From a virus, in the UHGV virus genome UHGV-0110022: 48,769 nucleotides of DNA; one strand, given 5' to 3'. The notes beneath the pieces were generated by a model. That model ran no database searches, had not been told where the DNA came from, and worked only from the letters and a program-made list of their open reading frames with translations. Made by a program: the position numbers and the translations under genes. This document shows, one piece after another, positions 9,894 to 16,888 of the stretch (within the stretch, counting starts at the first letter, position 1; the number at the start of each line of letters is the position of its first letter).

Positions 9894-10646
9894 ATGAACC
9901 TTGAAGCTTTACCAAAATATTACTCCCCAAAATCTCCAAAATTGAGTGATGACGCACCGGCGACAGGCTCGGGTGGTTTAACAATTACAGATGTGATGGC
10001 TGCGCAGGGGATGGTGCAGTCGAAAGCACCGCTTGGGTTTGCCTTATTCCTGGCAAAAGTTGGTGTTCAGGATCCTCAGTTTGCGATTGAAGGTCTGCTC
10101 AATTACGCGATGGCACTGGATAACCCGACATTGAACAAATTGAGTGAAGAAACCCGGCTACAGATCATTCCTTACCTTGTGAATTTTGCCTTTGCTGATT
10201 ATTCCAGGTCTGCGGCAAGTAAGGCTCGCTGTGAGCGTTGTGCTGGTACTGGATTTCATAATGTATTGCGCGAAGTGGTGAAACACTCCAGAAGCGGGGA
10301 GTCTGTTATCAAAGAAGAGTGGGTGAAGGAACTATGTCAGCATTGTCATGGTAAGGGAGAAGTCAGCACAGCGTGCAGAGGGTGTAAGGGTAAAGGTATT
10401 GTCCTGGATGAAAAAAGAACCCGGCTTCATGGCACGCCTGTTTATAAGATTTGTGGGCGTTGCAATGGAAACCGGTTTAGCCGTTTACCAACCACACTGG
10501 CGCGGCTTCATGTCAAGAAGCTGGTACCAGACCTGACGGATTATCAGTGGTACAAAGGATATGCAGATGTCATTGATAAACTGATTACAAAGTGCTGGCA
10601 GGAAGAGGCATATGCTGAGATGCAATTGAGAAAAGTGACGAAATAA
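9894..10646 (+). CDS. late-gene antiterminator Q-like protein (250 aa) with four CxxCxGxG zinc-finger repeats
   Basis: Position immediately upstream of a late-promoter-like region and the lysis cassette; size matches QuuQ-type Q proteins. Confidence 0.55.
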   Translation: MNLEALPKYYSPKSPKLSDDAPATGSGGLTITDVMAAQGMVQSKAPLGFALFLAKVGVQDPQFAIEGLLNYAMALDNPTLNKLSEETRLQIIPYLVNFAFADYSRSAASKARCERCAGTGFHNVLREVVKHSRSGESVIKEEWVKELCQHCHGKGEVSTACRGCKGKGIVLDEKRTRLHGTPVYKICGRCNGNRFSRLPTTLARLHVKKLVPDLTDYQWYKGYADVIDKLITKCWQEEAYAEMQLRKVTK

Positions 10647-10677: not shown

Positions 10678-10706
10678 TTGCATTTTTCAAAAAATCTGGT
10701 TAGGAT
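10678..10706 (+). promoter_or_regulatory. late promoter candidate (PR'-like)
   Basis: TTGCAT(10678-10683)-17 nt-TAGGAT(10701-10706) directly downstream of Q. Confidence 0.4.
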
Positions 10707-10754
10707 TTTTTCAATGATGGGCTTTGTCTGTTTACCATTAAATCGCCTAAGAAA

Positions 10755-10780
10755 TCCGCAATGATGCGGGTTTCTTGTTT
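10755..10780 (+). terminator. short hairpin plus T-rich tract (tR'-like)
   Basis: CCGCA-atga-TGCGG followed by GTTTCTTGTTT. Confidence 0.35.
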
Positions 10781-10791
10781 GTAGCAAGTGC

Positions 10792-12045
10792 ATGATGATA
10801 TTGTTTATGCAGGTTGTTACATGTATGGGCGGAAAAATGGATATCTTTGAGTCGTTTAAAGCAGAGAAGCAGAAAAACCATAAAGTTAATATTTACTATA
10901 CTCCTTCGAAACCAGTTTCTTCACCTTCGAATTTGAGAGGGAGGAATGAAGAAATACAGAAGATTTTAGCAGCATTAACAACCCCTGGTCGCCATTGTAT
11001 GATCTATGGTGATCGTGGTATCGGCAAAAGTTCCCTTGCTCTATCTACTCTTGAGGGAGGAAAAGAGCATGAGATTTTACCAGAAATAGTTTTTCAATAT
11101 CGCTGTATAAAAAATACAACGTTTAAAGACATTATTGAAAAAGCTGCTATTTTTATCGATGAAGCCTATAAACATGATAAAGTTGAAACTACTAAGAAGT
11201 ATGGTGCTAGAGCTCGTTTTTTAGATTTATTCAGCTTGGAAGGCTCTAGGGAAGAAAAAATTACTATTGAAAAAGAAGAGTTGACGGCAAATAAAGCTGC
11301 TTCTGTTTTACATCACCTCGAGTCTGTACTTCTTATTGATGAATTTGATGTTGTCAAAGAAGAAGTAAAGCATGAAGTAGCAGAGTTTGTAAAGCAACTT
11401 AGCGATGCTGGAAGTCCATTTAAAGTTTTGATAGTTGGCATAGGTTCTGATGGTGCAGCTTTAATGGCTGGGCATCAGTCAGTAATACGTTGTATGCATG
11501 AAATAAAGTTGCCGCGTGTTGAAGATAAATATCTATCAGAGATAATCGAAAGCGGTGAAAATGGATTGGGTTTGACTTTTTCGCAGCCAATAAAAAAATC
11601 TATTATCGAGATTAGCAGCGGATTCCCTTATTTTACTCATTTATTATGTAAGGAATGTGCAGAAGAGGCTATCCGCCAGTCAAAAACTATTATTGATAGA
11701 AGTATTTTTGAACAAGCCTTGATCGTTGCAGTGAAAAATACTGAAGGTCAATTAAAACGTTGTTACGATCTCGCCGTAACATCTTCTAGAACCGACATGT
11801 ATCCCAAGATCCTTTTATCTGCGGCAAAATTTAAAAATGAACAATTTAGCGTCAAAAATTGGATAGAGCAAATTGCTGAAGATCATGGCTTAGAGCTTAC
11901 ATATGGAAGTATGAATAATTATACTGGTAAGTTAATAAAAGCTGAGCGAGGAGAAATTCTTCAGTTAGTTAGAAGAGGGGTATATAAAATCACGGATCCA
12001 AGAATGCCAAGTTATATTCTTATGTGCCACAATGCGATCCCTTAA
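10792..12045 (+). CDS. stand-alone AAA+-type P-loop ATPase (cargo gene)
   Basis: Walker A GDRGIGKSS, Walker B LLIDEFD; strongly AT-rich relative to flanks; start uncertain (ATG at 10792, 10825 or 10837). Confidence 0.6.
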   Translation: MMILFMQVVTCMGGKMDIFESFKAEKQKNHKVNIYYTPSKPVSSPSNLRGRNEEIQKILAALTTPGRHCMIYGDRGIGKSSLALSTLEGGKEHEILPEIVFQYRCIKNTTFKDIIEKAAIFIDEAYKHDKVETTKKYGARARFLDLFSLEGSREEKITIEKEELTANKAASVLHHLESVLLIDEFDVVKEEVKHEVAEFVKQLSDAGSPFKVLIVGIGSDGAALMAGHQSVIRCMHEIKLPRVEDKYLSEIIESGENGLGLTFSQPIKKSIIEISSGFPYFTHLLCKECAEEAIRQSKTIIDRSIFEQALIVAVKNTEGQLKRCYDLAVTSSRTDMYPKILLSAAKFKNEQFSVKNWIEQIAEDHGLELTYGSMNNYTGKLIKAERGEILQLVRRGVYKITDPRMPSYILMCHNAIP

Positions 12046-12085
12046 TTTTCTATTCATAATCACAAATATTTAATTATTCTTTTAA

Positions 12086-12112
12086 ACAGGCTCCCTTTAG
12101 GGGCCTGTTTTT
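12086..12112 (+). terminator. rho-independent terminator after the ATPase gene
   Basis: ACAGGCTCCC-ttta-GGGGCCTGT hairpin followed by TTTTT. Confidence 0.6.
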
Positions 12113-12211
12113 ACTTATATGGGTGGTATTGTTTCTATGACTAGTTAGCAAATCCTCCATTAAATATTTTACTTTCATTATATGTCCTGACTTTCTGTAG
12201 GCGGCGAAACC

Positions 12212-13570: not shown

Positions 13571-14080
13571 ATGGAAAGGTTTATAAAATCAATTGAATCT
13601 TCAATTGAAAGTGAGAATTGGTTAGCGGCATTGTTTATGGCTCTTGCTATGCCTGATATTTGCAGGAGCGTTGAACGTCCCAAAATAGGTAAGGGTGAAA
13701 CAGGGAAATGGTATAAAGATTGGGTTTCTCGTTATCTTGAAAATAAATATACATCCGGTACACATGAACAGTGTCGATTTTATGCGGATGATTTTTGGCT
13801 GTATCGTTGTTCTTGTTTACATGCTGGACAGGATCCAGAGAACAGGAAAAGAATGATGCAGTTTAATTTTACACCACCACCTAGGCCAAATTGCCAAGTG
13901 CATTTAAATCACTTAAATGGCAAACTTCAGTTGCAAATAGATGTGTTTTGTCGAGATATGATTGAGGCAGTCAATCAATGGCGTACTGAGGTCGAGGATA
14001 CGCCAGAAATTAAGGCTCGTATGGATTCTCTGATAAATATATCATTAGCATCTTTTGGAACATTCATTGTATTTGGTTAA
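13571..14080 (+). CDS. hypothetical protein (169 aa), AT-rich cargo gene
   Basis: AAGGTGAG RBS; AT-rich; inserted between spanins and HNH; no recognisable motif. Confidence 0.55.
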   Translation: MERFIKSIESSIESENWLAALFMALAMPDICRSVERPKIGKGETGKWYKDWVSRYLENKYTSGTHEQCRFYADDFWLYRCSCLHAGQDPENRKRMMQFNFTPPPRPNCQVHLNHLNGKLQLQIDVFCRDMIEAVNQWRTEVEDTPEIKARMDSLINISLASFGTFIVFG

Positions 14081-14663: not shown

Positions 14664-15158
14664 ATGGCTGGAACGGCGGGGCGTTCCGGGCGTCGCCCCA
14701 AGCCAACGGCGCGCAAGGCGCTGGCCGGAAACCCCGGCAAGCGAGCCCTGAATAAAGATGAACCTGTTTTTACGCCCATCAAAGGTGTTGAGCCACCGGA
14801 GTGGTTCGCAGAAGAAAATCTCCCTCTCGCCACGATCATGTGGCAACTGACAACCAAAGAACTCTGCGGTCAGGGCCTGTTGTGCGTGACTGACCTCGCG
14901 GTGCTTGAGCGGTGGTGCGTGGCCTATGAGTTCTGGCGACGTGCCGTGAAAAATATTGCCATACAGGGCAACACCATCACCGGTGCAATGGGCGGCAGGG
15001 TCAAAAATCCGGAGCTGACCGCCAAAAAAGAACAGGAGTCCGAGATGAGCAGCACGGGGGCAATGCTCGGACTCGACCCCAGCAGCCGCCAGCGTCTGAT
15101 TGGCCTGGCGGGGCAGAAGAAAGCCACTAACCCGTTTCTGAAAATCATCGAGTCATGA
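14664..15158 (+). CDS. terminase small subunit (P27 family)
   Basis: AGGAG RBS 8 nt before ATG 14664; basic N-terminus; precedes large terminase. Confidence 0.8.
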
Positions 15159-16888
15159 GCCGGAAATCTTACCCCAACGTAAATGCTGCCAATCAGTATG
15201 CCCGTGATGTTGTGCGCGGAAAGATTGTGGCCTGCCAGTTTGTGATTCAGGCCTGCCAGCGCCATCTTGATGACCTGATGGCGGAAAAAAGTAAGTCGTT
15301 TCGTTACCGCTTCGACAAGGACCTGGCTGAACGGGCCGCCAAATTTATTCAGCTGTTGCCGCACACCAAGGGTGAGTGGGCATTCAAGAGGATGCCCATC
15401 ACGCTGGAGCCGTGGCAGCTATTTGTGGTCTGCTGTGCGTTTGGCTGGGTCAATAAAGGGTCCCGGCTGCGCCGCTTCCGGGAGGTGTATACCGAAATCC
15501 CCCGTAAGAACGGCAAATCGGCAATCTCTGCCGGTGTTGCCCTGTATTGTTTTGCCTGTGATAACGAGTTTGGCGCGGAAGTGTATTCCGGTGCCACGAC
15601 AGAGAAACAGGCGTGGGAAGTCTTTCGCCCGGCGCGACTGATGTGTAAACGCACACCCATGCTGACGGAAGCGTTCGGGATTGAGGTTAACGCCTCAAAC
15701 ATGAATCGTCCGGAGGATGGCGCGCGGTTTGAACCGCTGATCGGTAACCCCGGTGATGGTTCATCACCCCACTGTGCGGTGGTGGATGAATATCACGAGC
15801 ACGCCACCGATGCGCTTTACACCACGATGCTTACCGGGATGGGGGCGCGACGTCAGCCACTGATGTGGGCCATTACTACTGCCGGGTACAACATTGAGGG
15901 GCCGTGCTACGACAAGCGACGGGAAGTTATCGAGATGCTCAACGGGTCGGTACCCAACGATGAACTGTTCGGGATCATCTATACCGTTGACGAAGGCGAT
16001 GACTGGACCGACCCGCAGGTGCTGGAAAAAGCTAACCCGAATATTGGCGTGTCGGTTTATCGCGAATTTTTGTTAAGTCAGCAGCAGCGTGCGAAAAATA
16101 ACGCCCGTCTGGCAAACGTCTTTAAAACAAAACACCTCAATATCTGGGTGTCGGCGCGTTCGGCGTATTTCAACCTGGTGAGCTGGCAGAGCTGCGAGGA
16201 TAAATCACTGACCCTTGAGCAGTTCGAGGGGCAGCCGTGCATTCTGGCCTTTGACCTGGCCCGTAAGCTGGATATGAACAGCATGGCGCGACTTTATACC
16301 CGCGAGATTGACGGTAAAACGCATTACTACAGTGTGGCCCCGCGTTTCTGGGTACCGTATGACACGGTGTACAGCGTCGAGAAAAATGAAGATCGCCGGA
16401 CAGCCGAACGCTTTCAGAAATGGGTGGAAATGGGCGTCCTGACCGTTACCGATGGTGCAGAGGTGGATTATCGCTACATCCTCGAAGAGGCCAAAGCGGC
16501 GAACAAAATCAGCCCGGTCAGCGAGTCACCCATCGACCCCTTCGGGGCGACCGGGCTGTCACATGACCTTGCTGATGAAGACCTGAATCCCATCACCATC
16601 ATTCAGAACTACACCAACATGTCCGACCCGATGAAAGAGCTGGAAGCGGCAATTGAATCGGGGCGCTTTCATCATGATGGCAATCCCATCATGACCTGGT
16701 GTATCGGCAACGTGGTCGGCAAAACCATTCCGGGTAACGATGATGTGGTGAAGCCCGTCAAAGAGCAGGCGGAAAACAAAATCGATGGTGCAGTTGCGCT
16801 GATTATGGCGGTTGGCAGAGCCATGCTGTACGAGAAAGAAGACACGCTGTCTGACCACATTGAGTCCTATGGGATCCGCTCGCTTTAA
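15155..16888 (+). CDS. terminase large subunit
   Basis: 577 aa with ATPase and nuclease regions; ATGA overlap with small subunit. Confidence 0.9.

What the first reader, a model, noticed from the sequence alone, without database searches (positions are those of the whole stretch)
10678..12112. AT-rich stand-alone ATPase cargo gene between Q antiterminator and the holin
Seen: a 417-aa ORF with Walker A GDRGIGKSS and Walker B LLIDEFD, visibly AT-rich against the flanking phage genes, preceded by a late-promoter-like element and followed by its own hairpin-U terminator (12086-12112). Established: the Q-to-lysis interval of lambdoid prophages is a recurrent cargo hotspot for toxins and anti-phage genes. 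Inference: a single-gene NTPase-based defence or abortive-infection candidate; the C-terminal roughly 170 residues have no motif I can name and no partner gene is visible.
Basis: partly seen in the sequence, partly recalled or inferred. Interest (0 to 1): 0.7.

Follow-up and report, generated by a model that had tools for sequence, protein, structure and literature searches.

The report
Compact orphan ATPase cargo in prophage
A foreign, AT-rich single gene sits between a prophage's late-gene switch and its lysis genes and encodes a small ORC/STAND-like ATPase from a large untested family that keeps turning up in the accessory-gene slots of temperate phages, so it is a plausible but unproven anti-phage gene.

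Summary
The maximal ORF is 10792-12045 (417 aa). The family-conserved start is 10837, giving 402 aa. The gene carries the stated Walker A and B motifs and has 35% GC against 49% in the flanks. It lies between a Pfam-confirmed Q antiterminator and a LydA-type holin, and a real hairpin-U terminator follows it (12084-12110).

Three things are new. First, the "late promoter" belongs to the conserved Q module, and a tR'-like terminator lies between it and the gene. The 1.4-kb cargo (about 10779-12185) starts right after that terminator. Second, the unnamed C-terminal part is an AAA+ lid plus a winged-helix-like domain. The whole protein models confidently (pLDDT 87.5) as an archaeal-ATPase/Orc1-Cdc6/STAND-grade NTPase, and Pfam nSTAND1 scores above its threshold. 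Third, it belongs to a large family of stand-alone ~400-aa proteins in at least 519 species, with no conserved partner gene. The gene is almost always more AT-rich than its host. Family members recur in temperate-phage accessory slots: Q-to-holin, the P2 old/tin hotspot, and the cluster N mycobacteriophage variable region.

No known defence family matches convincingly, and chromosomal copies are not in defence islands. A defence role is the best guess (about 0.45) and is untested.

The parts
10678..10706 (+). pR'-like late promoter of the Q module (TTGCAT, 17-nt spacer, TAGGAT). It is phage backbone, not cargo.
   Evidence: Read from the sequence and scored 7/12 to consensus. It is nearly invariant in CX21, mEp460 and Stx2k-phage Q modules that carry different downstream cargo. 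Its function as a promoter is inferred.
10748..10781 (+). tR'-like intrinsic terminator (13-bp stem, 4-nt loop, T-rich tail) between the late promoter and the ATPase gene. It is the last conserved element of the Q module.
   Evidence: -17.3 kcal/mol, z = -3.73, 1 of 200 shuffles folds as well. The stem is kept in the other Q modules although the stem sequence differs. Similarity to other phages ends just after the T-run.
10779..12185 (+). AT-rich cargo insertion of about 1.4 kb, holding one gene and its terminator.
   Evidence: The left boundary is where megablast similarity to about 1400 E. coli genomes ends (query position 179). The right boundary is where holin-side similarity resumes (query positions 140-146). 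GC is 0.352 against 0.49 in the flanks. The full cargo is present in only 5 of 5426 complete E. coli genomes.
10796..10804 (+). Possible weak extended -10 element (TGaTATTGT) inside the cargo, 33 nt upstream of the start codon. Speculative.
   Evidence: Pattern scan. It is below the threshold of the promoter tool. It is not evidence of function.
10837..12045 (+). CDS of the compact AAA+/STAND-like NTPase, 402 aa. Alternative upstream starts are 10825 (RefSeq, 406 aa) and 10792 (maximal ORF, 417 aa).
   Evidence: Pfam nSTAND1 scores 37.4 bits (GA 27.1), with AAA_22 and AAA_16 also matching. phrog_6841, of unknown function, matches at E 3e-119. The AF2 model has pLDDT 87.5 and pTM 0.82.
10897..10944 (+). 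Conserved N-terminal segment: T-P-S-x-P, then G35-R36-x-x-E (residues 21-36). This is the hhGRExE-type motif found upstream of the P-loop in STAND, Orc1/Cdc6 and PF01637 ATPases.
   Evidence: P23 and R36 are invariant; P26 and G35 are at least 90% conserved. The motif assignment comes from knowledge of the STAND class (Leipe et al. 2004).
11008..11034 (+). Walker A / P-loop, GDRGIGKSS (residues 58-66).
   Evidence: G61, G63 and S66 are invariant; G58, R60 and K64 are at least 90% conserved. Sequence.
11179..11277 (+). Variable beta-hairpin insertion (residues 115-147) between helix alpha2 and the Walker B strand. This is the topological position of the initiator-specific motif of ORC/DnaA/TnsC-type AAA+ proteins.
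   Evidence: Strands 115-123 and 137-145 in the model; residues 119-141 have pLDDT below 50. It is the most variable segment in the family, with entropy 2.75. The ISM analogy is inferred.
11329..11349 (+). Walker B, LLIDEFD (residues 165-171).
   Evidence: D168 is invariant and E169 is at least 90% conserved.
11470..11493 (+). GHxSVxRC motif (residues 212-219). R218 sits just before strand beta5, the box VII / 'SRC'-type arginine-finger position.
   Evidence: H213, S215 and R218 are at least 90% conserved. Position from the model's secondary structure. The arginine-finger role is inferred.
11614..11643 (+). Lid-domain motif S-x-G-F-P-Y-F-T-H-L (residues 260-269). It is a GxP-type motif and replaces the sensor-2 arginine of RuvB (GTPR).
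   Evidence: S260, H268 and L269 are invariant; G262 and P264 are at least 90% conserved. It aligns to the RuvB sensor-2 region in the PDB profile search.
11785..12042 (+). C-terminal winged-helix-like domain (residues ~317-402). It has three helices, a beta-hairpin wing carrying the conserved RGVYxFxDPRMPSYI motif, and a terminal helix.
   Evidence: Secondary-structure order H321-330, H339-350, H356-366, E375-379, E382-385, H390-400 at pLDDT above 88. The architecture matches PABY2304, SSO1545 and Cdc6. A profile of this region has no sequence match in the PDB. DNA binding is inferred, not shown.
12084..12115 (+). Intrinsic terminator of the cargo gene (11-bp GC-rich stem, 5-nt loop, T-run).

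Best explanation
The locus is a one-gene accessory cassette (a 'moron'). It was acquired horizontally and inserted exactly at the junction between the Q antitermination module (late promoter plus tR'-like terminator) and the lysis cassette of a lambdoid-type prophage.

It encodes an intact 402-aa nucleotide-switch ATPase of the Orc1/Cdc6, archaeal-ATPase and STAND grade of AAA+ proteins. The parts are an N-terminal GR..E motif, Walker A and B, an arginine-finger-like R218, a GxP lid and a C-terminal winged-helix-like domain. There is no enzymatic effector domain and no repeat-type sensor domain.

My best reading is that it serves inter-virus or anti-mobile-element conflict, by protecting the lysogen or the induced phage from competing phages.

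Proposed mechanism (inferred): ATP binding, triggered by a foreign nucleic acid or protein, drives self-assembly through the arginine-finger interface. The assembly then acts without catalysis. It would coat or clamp DNA through the winged helix and the pore-facing beta-hairpin, as ORC, MuB and TnsC do, or it would sequester a phage protein. Either route would block replication, transcription or packaging of the competitor.

The gene's own terminator stops any transcription that is not Q-modified before it reaches the holin. The gene can therefore be expressed at a low level without leaking lysis functions, and it is strongly expressed as the first late gene after induction.

Shown: gene structure, boundaries, fold class, family size, absence of a partner, and recurrence in phage accessory hotspots. 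Inferred: the conflict role, oligomerisation, DNA or protein binding, and the expression logic.
For: - The cargo is foreign and rare. GC is 0.352 against 0.49 in the flanks. It is in 5 of 5426 complete E. coli genomes, while the flanking Q and holin sequences are in about 1400-2800.
- The slot is variable. Other cargo occupies it in CX21, mEp460 and an Stx2k phage.
- Klebsiella prophages with different Q and holin types carry a 77-78% identical homologue in the same slot.
- In IMG/VR, 107 viral contigs carry relatives. About 15-17 of the 80 kept loci have Q at -1 and a holin at +1.
- A 60% identical paralogue sits in the P2 gpA-gpQ cos-proximal hotspot. That locus holds old/tin and validated defence systems (PMC9122126).
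- A 27% identical full-length homologue is the orphan gene 30 of cluster N mycobacteriophage Kevin1. It lies in the central variable region, which the authors link to prophage-mediated defence.
- In cellular genomes the gene is present in at least 519 species. It is more AT-rich than its locus in 74 of 75 cases (mean -8 GC points) and has no conserved neighbour (486 families among 504 neighbours). This is the signature of an autonomous, horizontally moving single-gene module.
- Pfam nSTAND1 scores above its gathering threshold. nSTAND1 was defined as the NTPase of predicted counter-invader systems (PMC8195603).
- The catalytic and interface motifs are invariant or near-invariant.
- There is a weak homologous hit to the PADLOC candidate PDC-S59.
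- A few true defence genes (HmaB/C, AbiH, AbiZ, a TIR effector) neighbour relatives in viral contigs.
- Precedent by analogy only: GiPD474, a single ParA-like ATPase on a Gifsy prophage, confers broad phage resistance (PMC12724215).
Against: - No experiment exists for any family member. All sources name it only 'ATP-binding protein', 'AAA family ATPase' or 'nSTAND1 domain-containing NTPase'.
- No known defence family matches with confidence.
- There is no effector domain, no repeat sensor and no hypervariable region. This is unlike every characterised STAND defence protein.
- Chromosomal copies lie next to housekeeping genes: clpB, isocitrate dehydrogenase, aldehyde dehydrogenase, lactamase_B and amidase. 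They are not in defence islands.
- Most PADLOC hits among chromosomal neighbours were generic AAA+ cross-hits to ClpB. No background control was possible.
- In this window the gene lies behind a terminator with no convincing promoter of its own. It may be expressed mainly late in the prophage's own lytic cycle, which fits a phage-serving function as well as a host-protecting one.
- A more distant 463-aa clade shares only the NTPase and lid. On Yersinia pMT1 it sits beside parAB and near ardA and a methylase, an anti-defence-like neighbourhood.
Confidence: 0.45

Rival explanations
1. It serves the phage's own DNA transactions. It would be a late-expressed ORC/DnaC/clamp-loader-like accessory ATPase that helps replication, recombination or genome packaging of the prophage that carries it.
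For: - The closest folds are replication initiators, clamp loaders, RuvB and MuB/TnsC.
- It is the first gene of the Q-dependent late transcript, behind tR'.
- The prophage's annotated replication module shows no helicase-loader gene.
- Some distant relatives are followed by an SRAP (ssDNA abasic-site) gene.
Against: - Closely related prophages with the same Q, replication and lysis modules lack the gene or carry unrelated cargo there.
- The gene sits in non-replication slots in P2-likes and in Kevin1.
- It occurs as a solitary gene in chromosomes with no phage genes nearby.
- It does not match any PHROG, Pfam or NCBIfam replication or packaging family at significance. TIGR02928 orc1/cdc6 scores 13 bits against a cut-off of 181.
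Confidence: 0.15
2. It is a lysogenic-conversion regulator: an ATP-gated winged-helix DNA-binding protein, like a minimal MalT or an archaeal Orc1-type regulator, that changes host or prophage transcription.
For: - It is stably retained next to housekeeping genes in Hymenobacter across three species.
- Other prophage cargo genes in this prophage are regulators, for example PerC.
Against: - No sequence match to any HTH or winged-helix regulator family.
- No conserved target gene or neighbour.
- The extreme patchiness, AT-richness and hotspot locations are more typical of conflict genes.
Confidence: 0.12
3. It is an anti-defence decoy: a phage-encoded NLR core without sensor or effector that co-assembles with, or titrates, host STAND (Avs-type) receptors. 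It would be produced as the first late gene, just before terminase and portal, which are the known Avs triggers.
For: - The STAND-grade core has neither sensor nor effector.
- It lies at the head of the late operon, upstream of terminase and portal.
- A single database protein fuses an NB-ARC-TPR receptor to a full copy of this module.
- The distant 463-aa clade lies near ardA and a methylase on pMT1.
Against: - Solitary chromosomal copies occur in hundreds of species without any phage context.
- Paralogues occupy the P2 old/tin and cluster N slots, which are known for defence genes expressed in lysogens.
- All ATPase motifs are conserved, which a passive decoy would not need.
- The fusion protein is a single unverified record.
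Confidence: 0.08
4. It is a relic or component of a transposition or target-selection system, that is, a TnsC/TniB/IstB/MuB-type AAA+ regulator.
For: - The PDB profile search gives a weak TnsC hit and Pfam gives a weak TniB hit (14.8 bits).
- One Aeromonas locus has an IS element upstream.
Against: - TniB scores below its cut-off (14.8 against 22.4).
- No transposase is conserved next to the gene in 155 loci. The Aeromonas IS is present in only one of four otherwise identical loci.
Confidence: 0.03

Closest known systems
Archaeal 'Walker-type ATPases' PABY2304 (PDB 2qen) and SSO1545 (PDB 2fna); Pfam PF01637 ATPase_2
   Different: Sequence identity is only 13-15%. The Pfam ATPase_2 score is 23.3 bits, below its cut-off of 33.2. 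Those proteins also have no known function, so the match does not transfer one. This family adds a beta-hairpin insertion and a distinctive C-terminal RGVYxFxDPRMPSYI wing.
Orc1/Cdc6 replication initiators
   Different: NCBIfam TIGR02928 scores 13 bits against a cut-off of 181. The gene is not next to an origin or replication module. It is a rare, AT-rich cargo gene. The insertion is a beta-hairpin, not a helical ISM.
STAND NTPases of bacterial immunity (Avs/AVAST, bNACHT, TIR-NLR of P4 satellites) and the nSTAND1 clade (PF20703)
   Same: Pfam nSTAND1 scores above its gathering threshold (37.4 against 27.1). GR..E and GxP motifs are present and a winged-helix-like domain follows the lid. Plant NLRs, CED-4 and MalT are among the structural matches. 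The gene is phage-borne and patchily distributed.
   Different: The protein is only 402 aa, with no N-terminal effector and no C-terminal TPR, WD40 or lectin sensor. The Pfam match covers only model positions 18-216 of 379. There is no PADLOC Avs or NLR hit. A conserved arginine sits at the AAA+ arginine-finger position, which is more typical of classical AAA+/ORC proteins. nSTAND1 proteins were described as multidomain (PMC8195603, PMC10907252).
PADLOC candidate PDC-S59 and the compact 'NLR-like' AAA_35/NB-ARC protein of the P4 hotspot (system 34 in Table S1B of Rousset et al. 2022)
   Same: These are single-gene ATPases of about 400-430 aa in defence or phage hotspots. They have a long insertion before Walker B and a similar LLIDE[FW] / AE[LFI]xK segment.
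   Different: Similarity is only local: PADLOC E 2.2e-7 over residues 156-300, and hhalign probability 62% over 54 columns. Neither is experimentally validated. They are different families.
GiPD474, a Gifsy-prophage single-gene ATPase defence
   Same: A single P-loop ATPase carried on a lambdoid prophage, with no recognisable effector, that confers broad phage resistance (PMC12724215). It is a functional precedent.
   Different: It is a ParA/MinD-type (AAA_31) deviant Walker A ATPase and is not homologous. It is encoded in the immunity region, not in the Q-lysis slot.
Late-operon morons of lambdoid phages (for example stx between Q/pR'/tR' and the lysis genes)
   Same: The insertion point is identical, immediately downstream of the Q-module terminator and upstream of the holin. 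The predicted Q-dependent expression is the same (the stx comparison is from general knowledge).
   Different: The cargo is an ATPase, not a toxin, and it carries its own terminator.

Membership tests
AAA+ / P-loop NTPase superfamily | Walker A GxxxxGK[ST], Walker B hhhhDE, and an alpha-beta-alpha core followed by a helical lid | tested here: met
STAND class (Leipe et al. 2004) | hhGRExE motif N-terminal to the P-loop | tested here: met
   The sequence reads L-R-G35-R36-N-E-E. R36 is invariant and G35 at least 90% conserved. The motif is shared with Orc1/Cdc6 and PF01637, so it is not exclusive to STAND.
STAND class (Leipe et al. 2004) | GxP motif in the helical domain after the NTPase core | tested here: met
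   G262-F-P264 are at least 90% conserved. The segment aligns with the RuvB GTPR sensor-2 region.
STAND class (Leipe et al. 2004) | Winged-helix domain after the helical domain, with a conserved histidine contacting ADP | tested here: inconclusive
   The secondary-structure pattern at residues 317-389 looks like a winged helix. The invariant histidine, H268, lies in the lid and not in that domain. No coordinates or nucleotide-bound model were available.
STAND class (Leipe et al. 2004) | Multidomain architecture with effector or adaptor and repeat or sensor domains (typical of the class) | tested here: not met
   The protein is 402 aa and is fully accounted for by NTPase, lid and winged-helix-like domain. 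Nearly all of the 150 best-scoring proteins listed by the profile search (1672 representatives have E < 1e-30) are also about 390-450 aa.
Pfam nSTAND1 (PF20703) | Score at or above the gathering threshold, with coverage of the model | tested here: inconclusive
   37.4 bits against GA 27.1 meets the threshold, but only model positions 18-216 of 379 are matched. RefSeq names a 60% identical paralogue 'nSTAND1 domain-containing NTPase'.
Avs / AVAST anti-phage STAND proteins | N-terminal effector, STAND NTPase and C-terminal TPR-like sensor, with matching PADLOC models | tested here: not met
   No Avs or NLR model appears among the PADLOC hits. No effector or TPR domain is present.
Orc1/Cdc6 initiators | Family-level sequence match (TIGR02928 / PF24389) and an origin-proximal replication role | tested here: not met
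   TIGR02928 scores 13.1 bits against a cut-off of 181.3. PF24389 scores 16.3 against 27. The context is accessory, not replicative. Resemblance is at fold level only.
Pfam ATPase_2 (PF01637, archaeal ATPase) | Score at or above the gathering threshold | tested here: not met
   23.3 bits against 33.2 for the window protein. Some family members do carry the precomputed PF01637 hit. This family gives the best structural match.
PADLOC candidate system PDC-S59 | Full-length match to the PDC-S59 model | tested here: inconclusive
   E 2.2e-7, 28.3 bits, covering residues 156-300 against model positions 131-273 of 428 only.
   The PHROG clamp loader matches at E 0.021, Sak4-like at 0.048 and ATPase at 0.038. 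The only strong hit is phrog_6841, of unknown function. BFVD gives only generic AAA+ fold matches with TM 0.3-0.48.
TnsC / TniB / IstB / MuB transposition ATPases | Family-level match and an adjacent transposase | tested here: not met
   TniB scores 14.8 bits against 22.4. No transposase is conserved among the neighbours.
Lambdoid late-operon cargo ('moron') slot | Insertion between the Q/pR'/tR' module and the lysis cassette, with variable content among related phages | tested here: met
Experimentally validated anti-phage defence system | Reduced phage plating or burst when the gene is expressed, abolished by catalytic mutants | not testable with these tools
   No experimental report was found for this family in ten literature searches.

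The most novel reading that the evidence does not exclude
The gene encodes a phage-made 'NLR core without ends': a decoy without sensor or effector. It would be produced as the very first late protein, so that it co-assembles with or titrates host STAND (Avs-type) receptors just before their triggers, terminase and portal, appear. It would be the first dominant-negative NLR-like anti-immune protein of a bacteriophage. A less exotic sibling reading is about 0.3 likely: the minimal core is by itself a complete, non-enzymatic immune system that works by ATP-driven coating of foreign DNA or protein.
Probability: 0.07. Interest if true: 0.85.

Novelty: new variant of a known kind. Interest (0 to 1): 0.55.

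Why it matters
If the family is a defence system, it would be one of the smallest NTPase-based systems known. It would be a STAND/ORC-like switch with neither an effector nor a dedicated sensor domain. That raises the question of how an ATPase plus a winged helix alone can stop a virus: by sequestration, by DNA coating, or by recruiting a host factor.

The family is large. The profile search found 8509 50%-identity representatives at E < 1e-3, and at least 519 species carry it across bacteria and archaea. It is carried by lambdoid, P2-like and actinobacterial temperate phages, so a phenotype would annotate thousands of genes now called only 'ATP-binding protein'.

The locus also shows cassette logic at the Q-to-holin junction. 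The cargo lands immediately after tR' and brings its own terminator, which would insulate the lysis genes.

If the gene has no anti-phage phenotype, it remains a well-defined orphan family with a confident fold and a clear set of mutants to test.

Tried and rejected
1. Known defence families. PADLOC, NCBIfam, Pfam and PHROGs were scanned. Only a partial hit to PDC-S59 appeared. IetA, mad8 and DS41_1 hits were at noise level and were rejected.

2. Sequence search of the PDB with the family profile and with the C-terminal domain alone. These gave only P-loop-level hits and chance hits.

3. Search for a partner gene, by clustering neighbours of 80 viral and 75 genomic loci. None was found. Apparent recurrent neighbours turned out to be phage backbone (Q, DUF968, holin, portal, terminase, integrase) or housekeeping genes (ClpB, isocitrate dehydrogenase, aldehyde dehydrogenase).

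4. Defence-island association in cellular genomes by PADLOC scan of 140 neighbours. The top hits (mad8, DolB, PDC-M37B, TRIP13) were housekeeping ClpB, so the result was discounted. An earlier attempt failed on the residue limit.

5. A hypervariable sensor region. Per-segment entropy shows none.

6. A promoter belonging to the cargo. Nothing reaches the scan threshold. Only a weak extended -10 candidate was found.

7. Rfam. No RNA family is found anywhere in the window.

8. Link to Rousset et al. 2022. Their tables list single-gene 'AAA_22' cargo at P4 and P2 hotspots (WP_000160301, WP_000360276, WP_032286573). I could not retrieve those sequences, so identity with this family is unverified. 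Their system 34 is a different family.

9. GiPD474 and HepS (Gifsy prophage defences) were checked as possible identities. Neither is homologous.

10. The AFDB fold library was unavailable. The BFVD viral library gave only generic clamp-loader matches.

11. Downstream overlapping ORFs of distant relatives were scanned for a hidden effector. They were SRAP in a few loci and otherwise had no family.


Full report
OBSERVATION

The ORF exists as described. It runs 10792..12045 on the + strand and gives 417 aa from the first ATG. Full-length homologues from many genera begin at the equivalent of ATG 10837 (MD[IV]F...). RefSeq calls 10825 (406 aa). The likely product is therefore 402 aa.

Walker A (GDRGIGKSS, nt 11008-11034) and Walker B (LLIDEFD, nt 11329-11349) are present. 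They fall in invariant or near-invariant columns of a 43-member alignment.

The AT-richness is real and sharply bounded. GC is 0.352 over 10779-12185, against 0.494 and 0.497 on either side. GC3 is 0.268, against 0.44-0.56 in the neighbouring genes.

The upstream gene is a Pfam PF03589 Q antiterminator and the downstream gene a PF16083 LydA-type holin.

The terminator at 12084-12110 has an 11-bp stem with a T-run. It folds at -17.3 kcal/mol (z = -3.5), and none of 200 shuffles folds as well.

The promoter-like element at 10678-10706 (TTGCAT-17-TAGGAT) matches only 7 of 12 consensus positions. The region's count of promoter-like sites is at chance.

I aligned the Q-proximal region with three other phages or prophages that share this Q type: E. 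coli CX21, mEp460 and an Stx2k phage. The promoter-like element, the sequence after it, and a hairpin plus T-run (10748-10777; -17.3 kcal/mol, z = -3.7) are all conserved. The hairpin keeps its stem although the stem sequence differs. Similarity stops immediately after the T-run.

This is the layout of a lambdoid pR'/tR' unit (assignment from general knowledge of lambdoid late control). It belongs to the phage backbone. The cargo begins at about 10779, directly after that terminator. It ends at about 12185, where similarity to other holin regions resumes.

The same slot holds a hypothetical gene plus a DNA methyltransferase in CX21 and mEp460, and other small genes in the Stx2k phage. The full cargo is present in 5 of 5426 complete E. 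coli genomes, whereas its flanks are in roughly 1400-2800. The slot is therefore a true variable cargo site, and the gene is the first gene of the Q-dependent late transcript.

I found no convincing promoter inside the cargo. There is only a weak extended -10 candidate at 10796-10804.

WHAT THE PROTEIN IS

Pfam gives nSTAND1 (37.4 bits, threshold 27.1, but only model positions 18-216 of 379), AAA_22 and AAA_16. ATPase_2 and ORC-CDC6-like score below threshold. PHROGs gives one strong hit, phrog_6841, of unknown function. PADLOC gives only a partial hit to the candidate family PDC-S59 (E 2e-7). NCBIfam antiphage and Orc1/Cdc6 models are far below their cut-offs.

An AlphaFold2 model built on the family alignment is confident: pLDDT 87.5 and pTM 0.82. 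Only a beta-hairpin insertion (residues 119-141) is uncertain.

- TnsC (15.2) and MuB (14.5) come next.
- Clamp loaders, plant NLRs (13.6-13.8), CED-4 (12.7) and MalT (12.6) rank lower.

The lid carries a conserved S-x-G-F-P-Y-F-T-H-L motif, which aligns with the RuvB sensor-2 segment. The winged-helix-like domain has three helices, a beta-hairpin wing carrying the family signature RGVYxFxDPRMPSYI, and a terminal helix. A profile of this C-terminal part has no sequence match in the PDB.

Other conserved features:
- An N-terminal T-P-S-x-P...G-R-x-x-E segment, which is the hhGRExE-type motif of STAND, ORC and PF01637 proteins.
- A near-invariant GHxSVxRC motif, whose arginine (R218) lies just before strand beta5, the position of the AAA+ arginine finger. 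This role is inferred.

The protein is thus an intact nucleotide-switch ATPase at the ORC/archaeal-ATPase/STAND grade. It has no enzymatic effector and no repeat sensor. Per-segment entropy shows no hypervariable region.

THE FAMILY AND WHERE IT LIVES

A full profile search of 1.84 billion representative proteins finds 8509 relatives at E < 1e-3 and 1672 at E < 1e-30. Nearly all of the best 150 listed are stand-alone proteins of 390-450 aa that match end to end. The one clear exception is a single 1191-aa protein that fuses an NB-ARC-TPR receptor to a full copy of the module. It is an unverified record.

They span Pseudomonadota, Actinomycetota, Bacteroidota, Planctomycetota, Cyanobacteria, Spirochaetota, Acidobacteriota, Chloroflexota and Methanothrix. 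In 74 of 75 of these loci the gene is more AT-rich than its surroundings (mean -8 GC points). The 504 neighbours fall into 486 families, so there is no partner gene.

In viral contigs, 107 carry relatives, again with no conserved partner. Their positions are informative:

1. The Q-to-holin slot. This includes the window itself. It also includes Klebsiella prophages with other Q and holin types that carry a 77-78% identical homologue. About 15-17 of 80 IMG/VR loci are in this slot, including a divergent 463-aa clade (~27% identity) that shares only the NTPase and lid.

2. The P2-type hotspot between replication gene A and portal gene Q. It holds a 60% identical paralogue in E. coli, in Salmonella and in a circular P2-like element. 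This is the locus that holds old and tin, and it was shown to be a reservoir of anti-phage systems (PMC9122126).

3. The central variable region of the cluster N mycobacteriophage Kevin1. Gene 30 is a 27% identical full-length homologue. [quoted passage not shown] A Gordonia phage also carries a homologue.

4. Integrase-proximal positions in Bacteroidota-type contigs.

A few neighbours in viral contigs are true defence genes: HmaB/C, AbiH, AbiZ and a TIR effector.

EVIDENCE THAT TEMPERS THE DEFENCE READING

Chromosomal copies are solitary AT-rich islets among housekeeping genes:
- In Aeromonas the gene lies between a lactamase_B gene and an amidase gene.
- In three Hymenobacter species it lies next to clpB. 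There the ATPase has diverged faster than ClpB (75-80% against 87-95% identity).
- In Planctomycetota it lies next to isocitrate or aldehyde dehydrogenase.

A PADLOC scan of 140 chromosomal neighbours looked rich at first. Its top families (mad8, DolB, PDC-M37B, TRIP13) were cross-hits to ClpB. I discount it, and I had no control set.

On Yersinia pMT1 the 463-aa clade sits after parAB and near a methylase and ardA. No paper in the searchable library reports a phenotype for the family.

HOW IT MOST LIKELY WORKS

The gene is foreign, rare, autonomous, intact and strongly conserved in its catalytic and interface motifs. It keeps landing in the accessory slots of unrelated temperate phages, two of which are established defence hotspots. 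The best-supported reading is therefore a conflict function: prophage-borne protection against competing phages or other mobile elements (confidence about 0.45).

No effector domain is present, so I propose a non-enzymatic mechanism. A nucleic-acid or protein cue promotes ATP-dependent self-assembly through the R218 interface. The oligomer then coats or clamps DNA through the winged helix and the hairpin at the ISM position, as ORC, MuB and TnsC do, or it sequesters a phage protein. Every step of this mechanism is inferred.

The cassette's own terminator would stop any transcription that is not Q-modified before it reaches the holin. After induction, Q-modified polymerase would read through it. 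This is also inference.

Rivals:
- A helper of the phage's own DNA transactions (0.15).
- An ATP-gated winged-helix regulator (0.12).
- An anti-defence decoy of host STAND receptors, timed with late genes (0.08).
- A transposition-type ATPase relic (0.03).

COMPARISON WITH WHAT IS KNOWN, AND NOVELTY

By fold it works like ORC/Cdc6, the archaeal PF01637 ATPases and STAND cores. By membership it is an AAA+ protein that passes the Pfam nSTAND1 threshold over the NTPase half only. It fails the Orc1/Cdc6, PF01637, TniB and Avs tests. It lacks the multidomain architecture for which nSTAND1 and Avs proteins are known (PMC8195603, PMC10907252).

I rate it a new variant of a known kind: a minimal, stand-alone version of the NTPase switch used in STAND/AAA+ conflict systems.

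Interest is 0.55. It is a good, well-delimited candidate with a large silent family and an unusual architecture without an effector. However, it has no phenotype, no defence-island support, and an uncertain expression state in the lysogen.

Noticed in passing
window 13571-14080 (+): A second AT-rich ORF (169 aa; GC 0.375, GC3 0.28) lies between the spanin genes and the HNH/terminase genes. It matches phrog_18591 (unknown function, E 1e-73) and no Pfam family. It is probably a second independent cargo gene in the same late operon.
   Followed up: partly
window 10748-10777 versus L014, L096 and L097: The tR'-like hairpin of the Q module keeps its stem in four phages although the stem sequence differs (CCGCAATGATGCGG against CCCGCC.CTGAGCGGG). 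Every cargo begins within a few bases of its T-run, which suggests a preferred recombination or insertion point.
   Followed up: partly
L002-L004 9225-10000 (Klebsiella prophages): About 780 bp with no convincing ORF lie between the ATPase homologue and the holin. This is much longer than the 166-bp spacer in the window. The content is unexplained: it could be a remnant, an RNA or a regulatory region.
   Followed up: no
protein P0122 (from the representative search): A single 1191-aa protein joins an NB-ARC + DUF7779 + TPR receptor to a complete copy of this ~400-aa module through a ~60-aa linker with no internal start codon. It could be a true fusion or an assembly or annotation artefact.
   Followed up: partly
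L132, L135, L138 (three Hymenobacter species): The family member sits immediately upstream of housekeeping clpB in all three species. Its GC is 0.37-0.39 against 0.62-0.64 for clpB. A foreign-looking gene has been retained through speciation.
   Followed up: partly
alignment A5 neighbours: The PADLOC models mad8, DolB, PDC-M37B and TRIP13 hit ordinary ClpB chaperones at E down to 1e-41. Neighbour counts based on PADLOC hits alone overstate defence association.
   Followed up: yes
L042, L043, L045, L047, L049: Several distant relatives (26-33% identity) have an SRAP (SOS-response-associated peptidase, PF02586) gene as the next gene. In L043 it overlaps the ATPase stop.
   Followed up: partly
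L178 (Yersinia pestis CO92 pMT1, record 66212-67603): A 463-aa relative (29% identity over the NTPase and lid only) is conserved on 63 Yersinia plasmids. It lies directly after parA/parB and upstream of a DNA methylase and ardA.
   Followed up: partly
window 9894-10646 (Q antiterminator): The Q protein has a DnaJ-type CXXCXGXG zinc-finger segment (PF00684, 30.8 bits, just under the 32.7 cut-off) in front of the PF03589 antiterminator domain.
   Followed up: no
window 15155-16888 versus L001 16564-18296: The large terminase ORF is intact in the window (577 aa). RefSeq marks it as frameshifted in strain 22AR0750, whose cargo region is 100% identical. The prophage is probably functional in some hosts and decaying in others.
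   Followed up: no
Rousset et al. 2022, Tables S1A and S5A: Single-gene cargo annotated only as 'AAA_22' occurs at both the P4 and the P2 hotspots (WP_000160301, WP_000360276, WP_032286573). I could not retrieve the sequences to see whether they belong to this family.
   Followed up: partly
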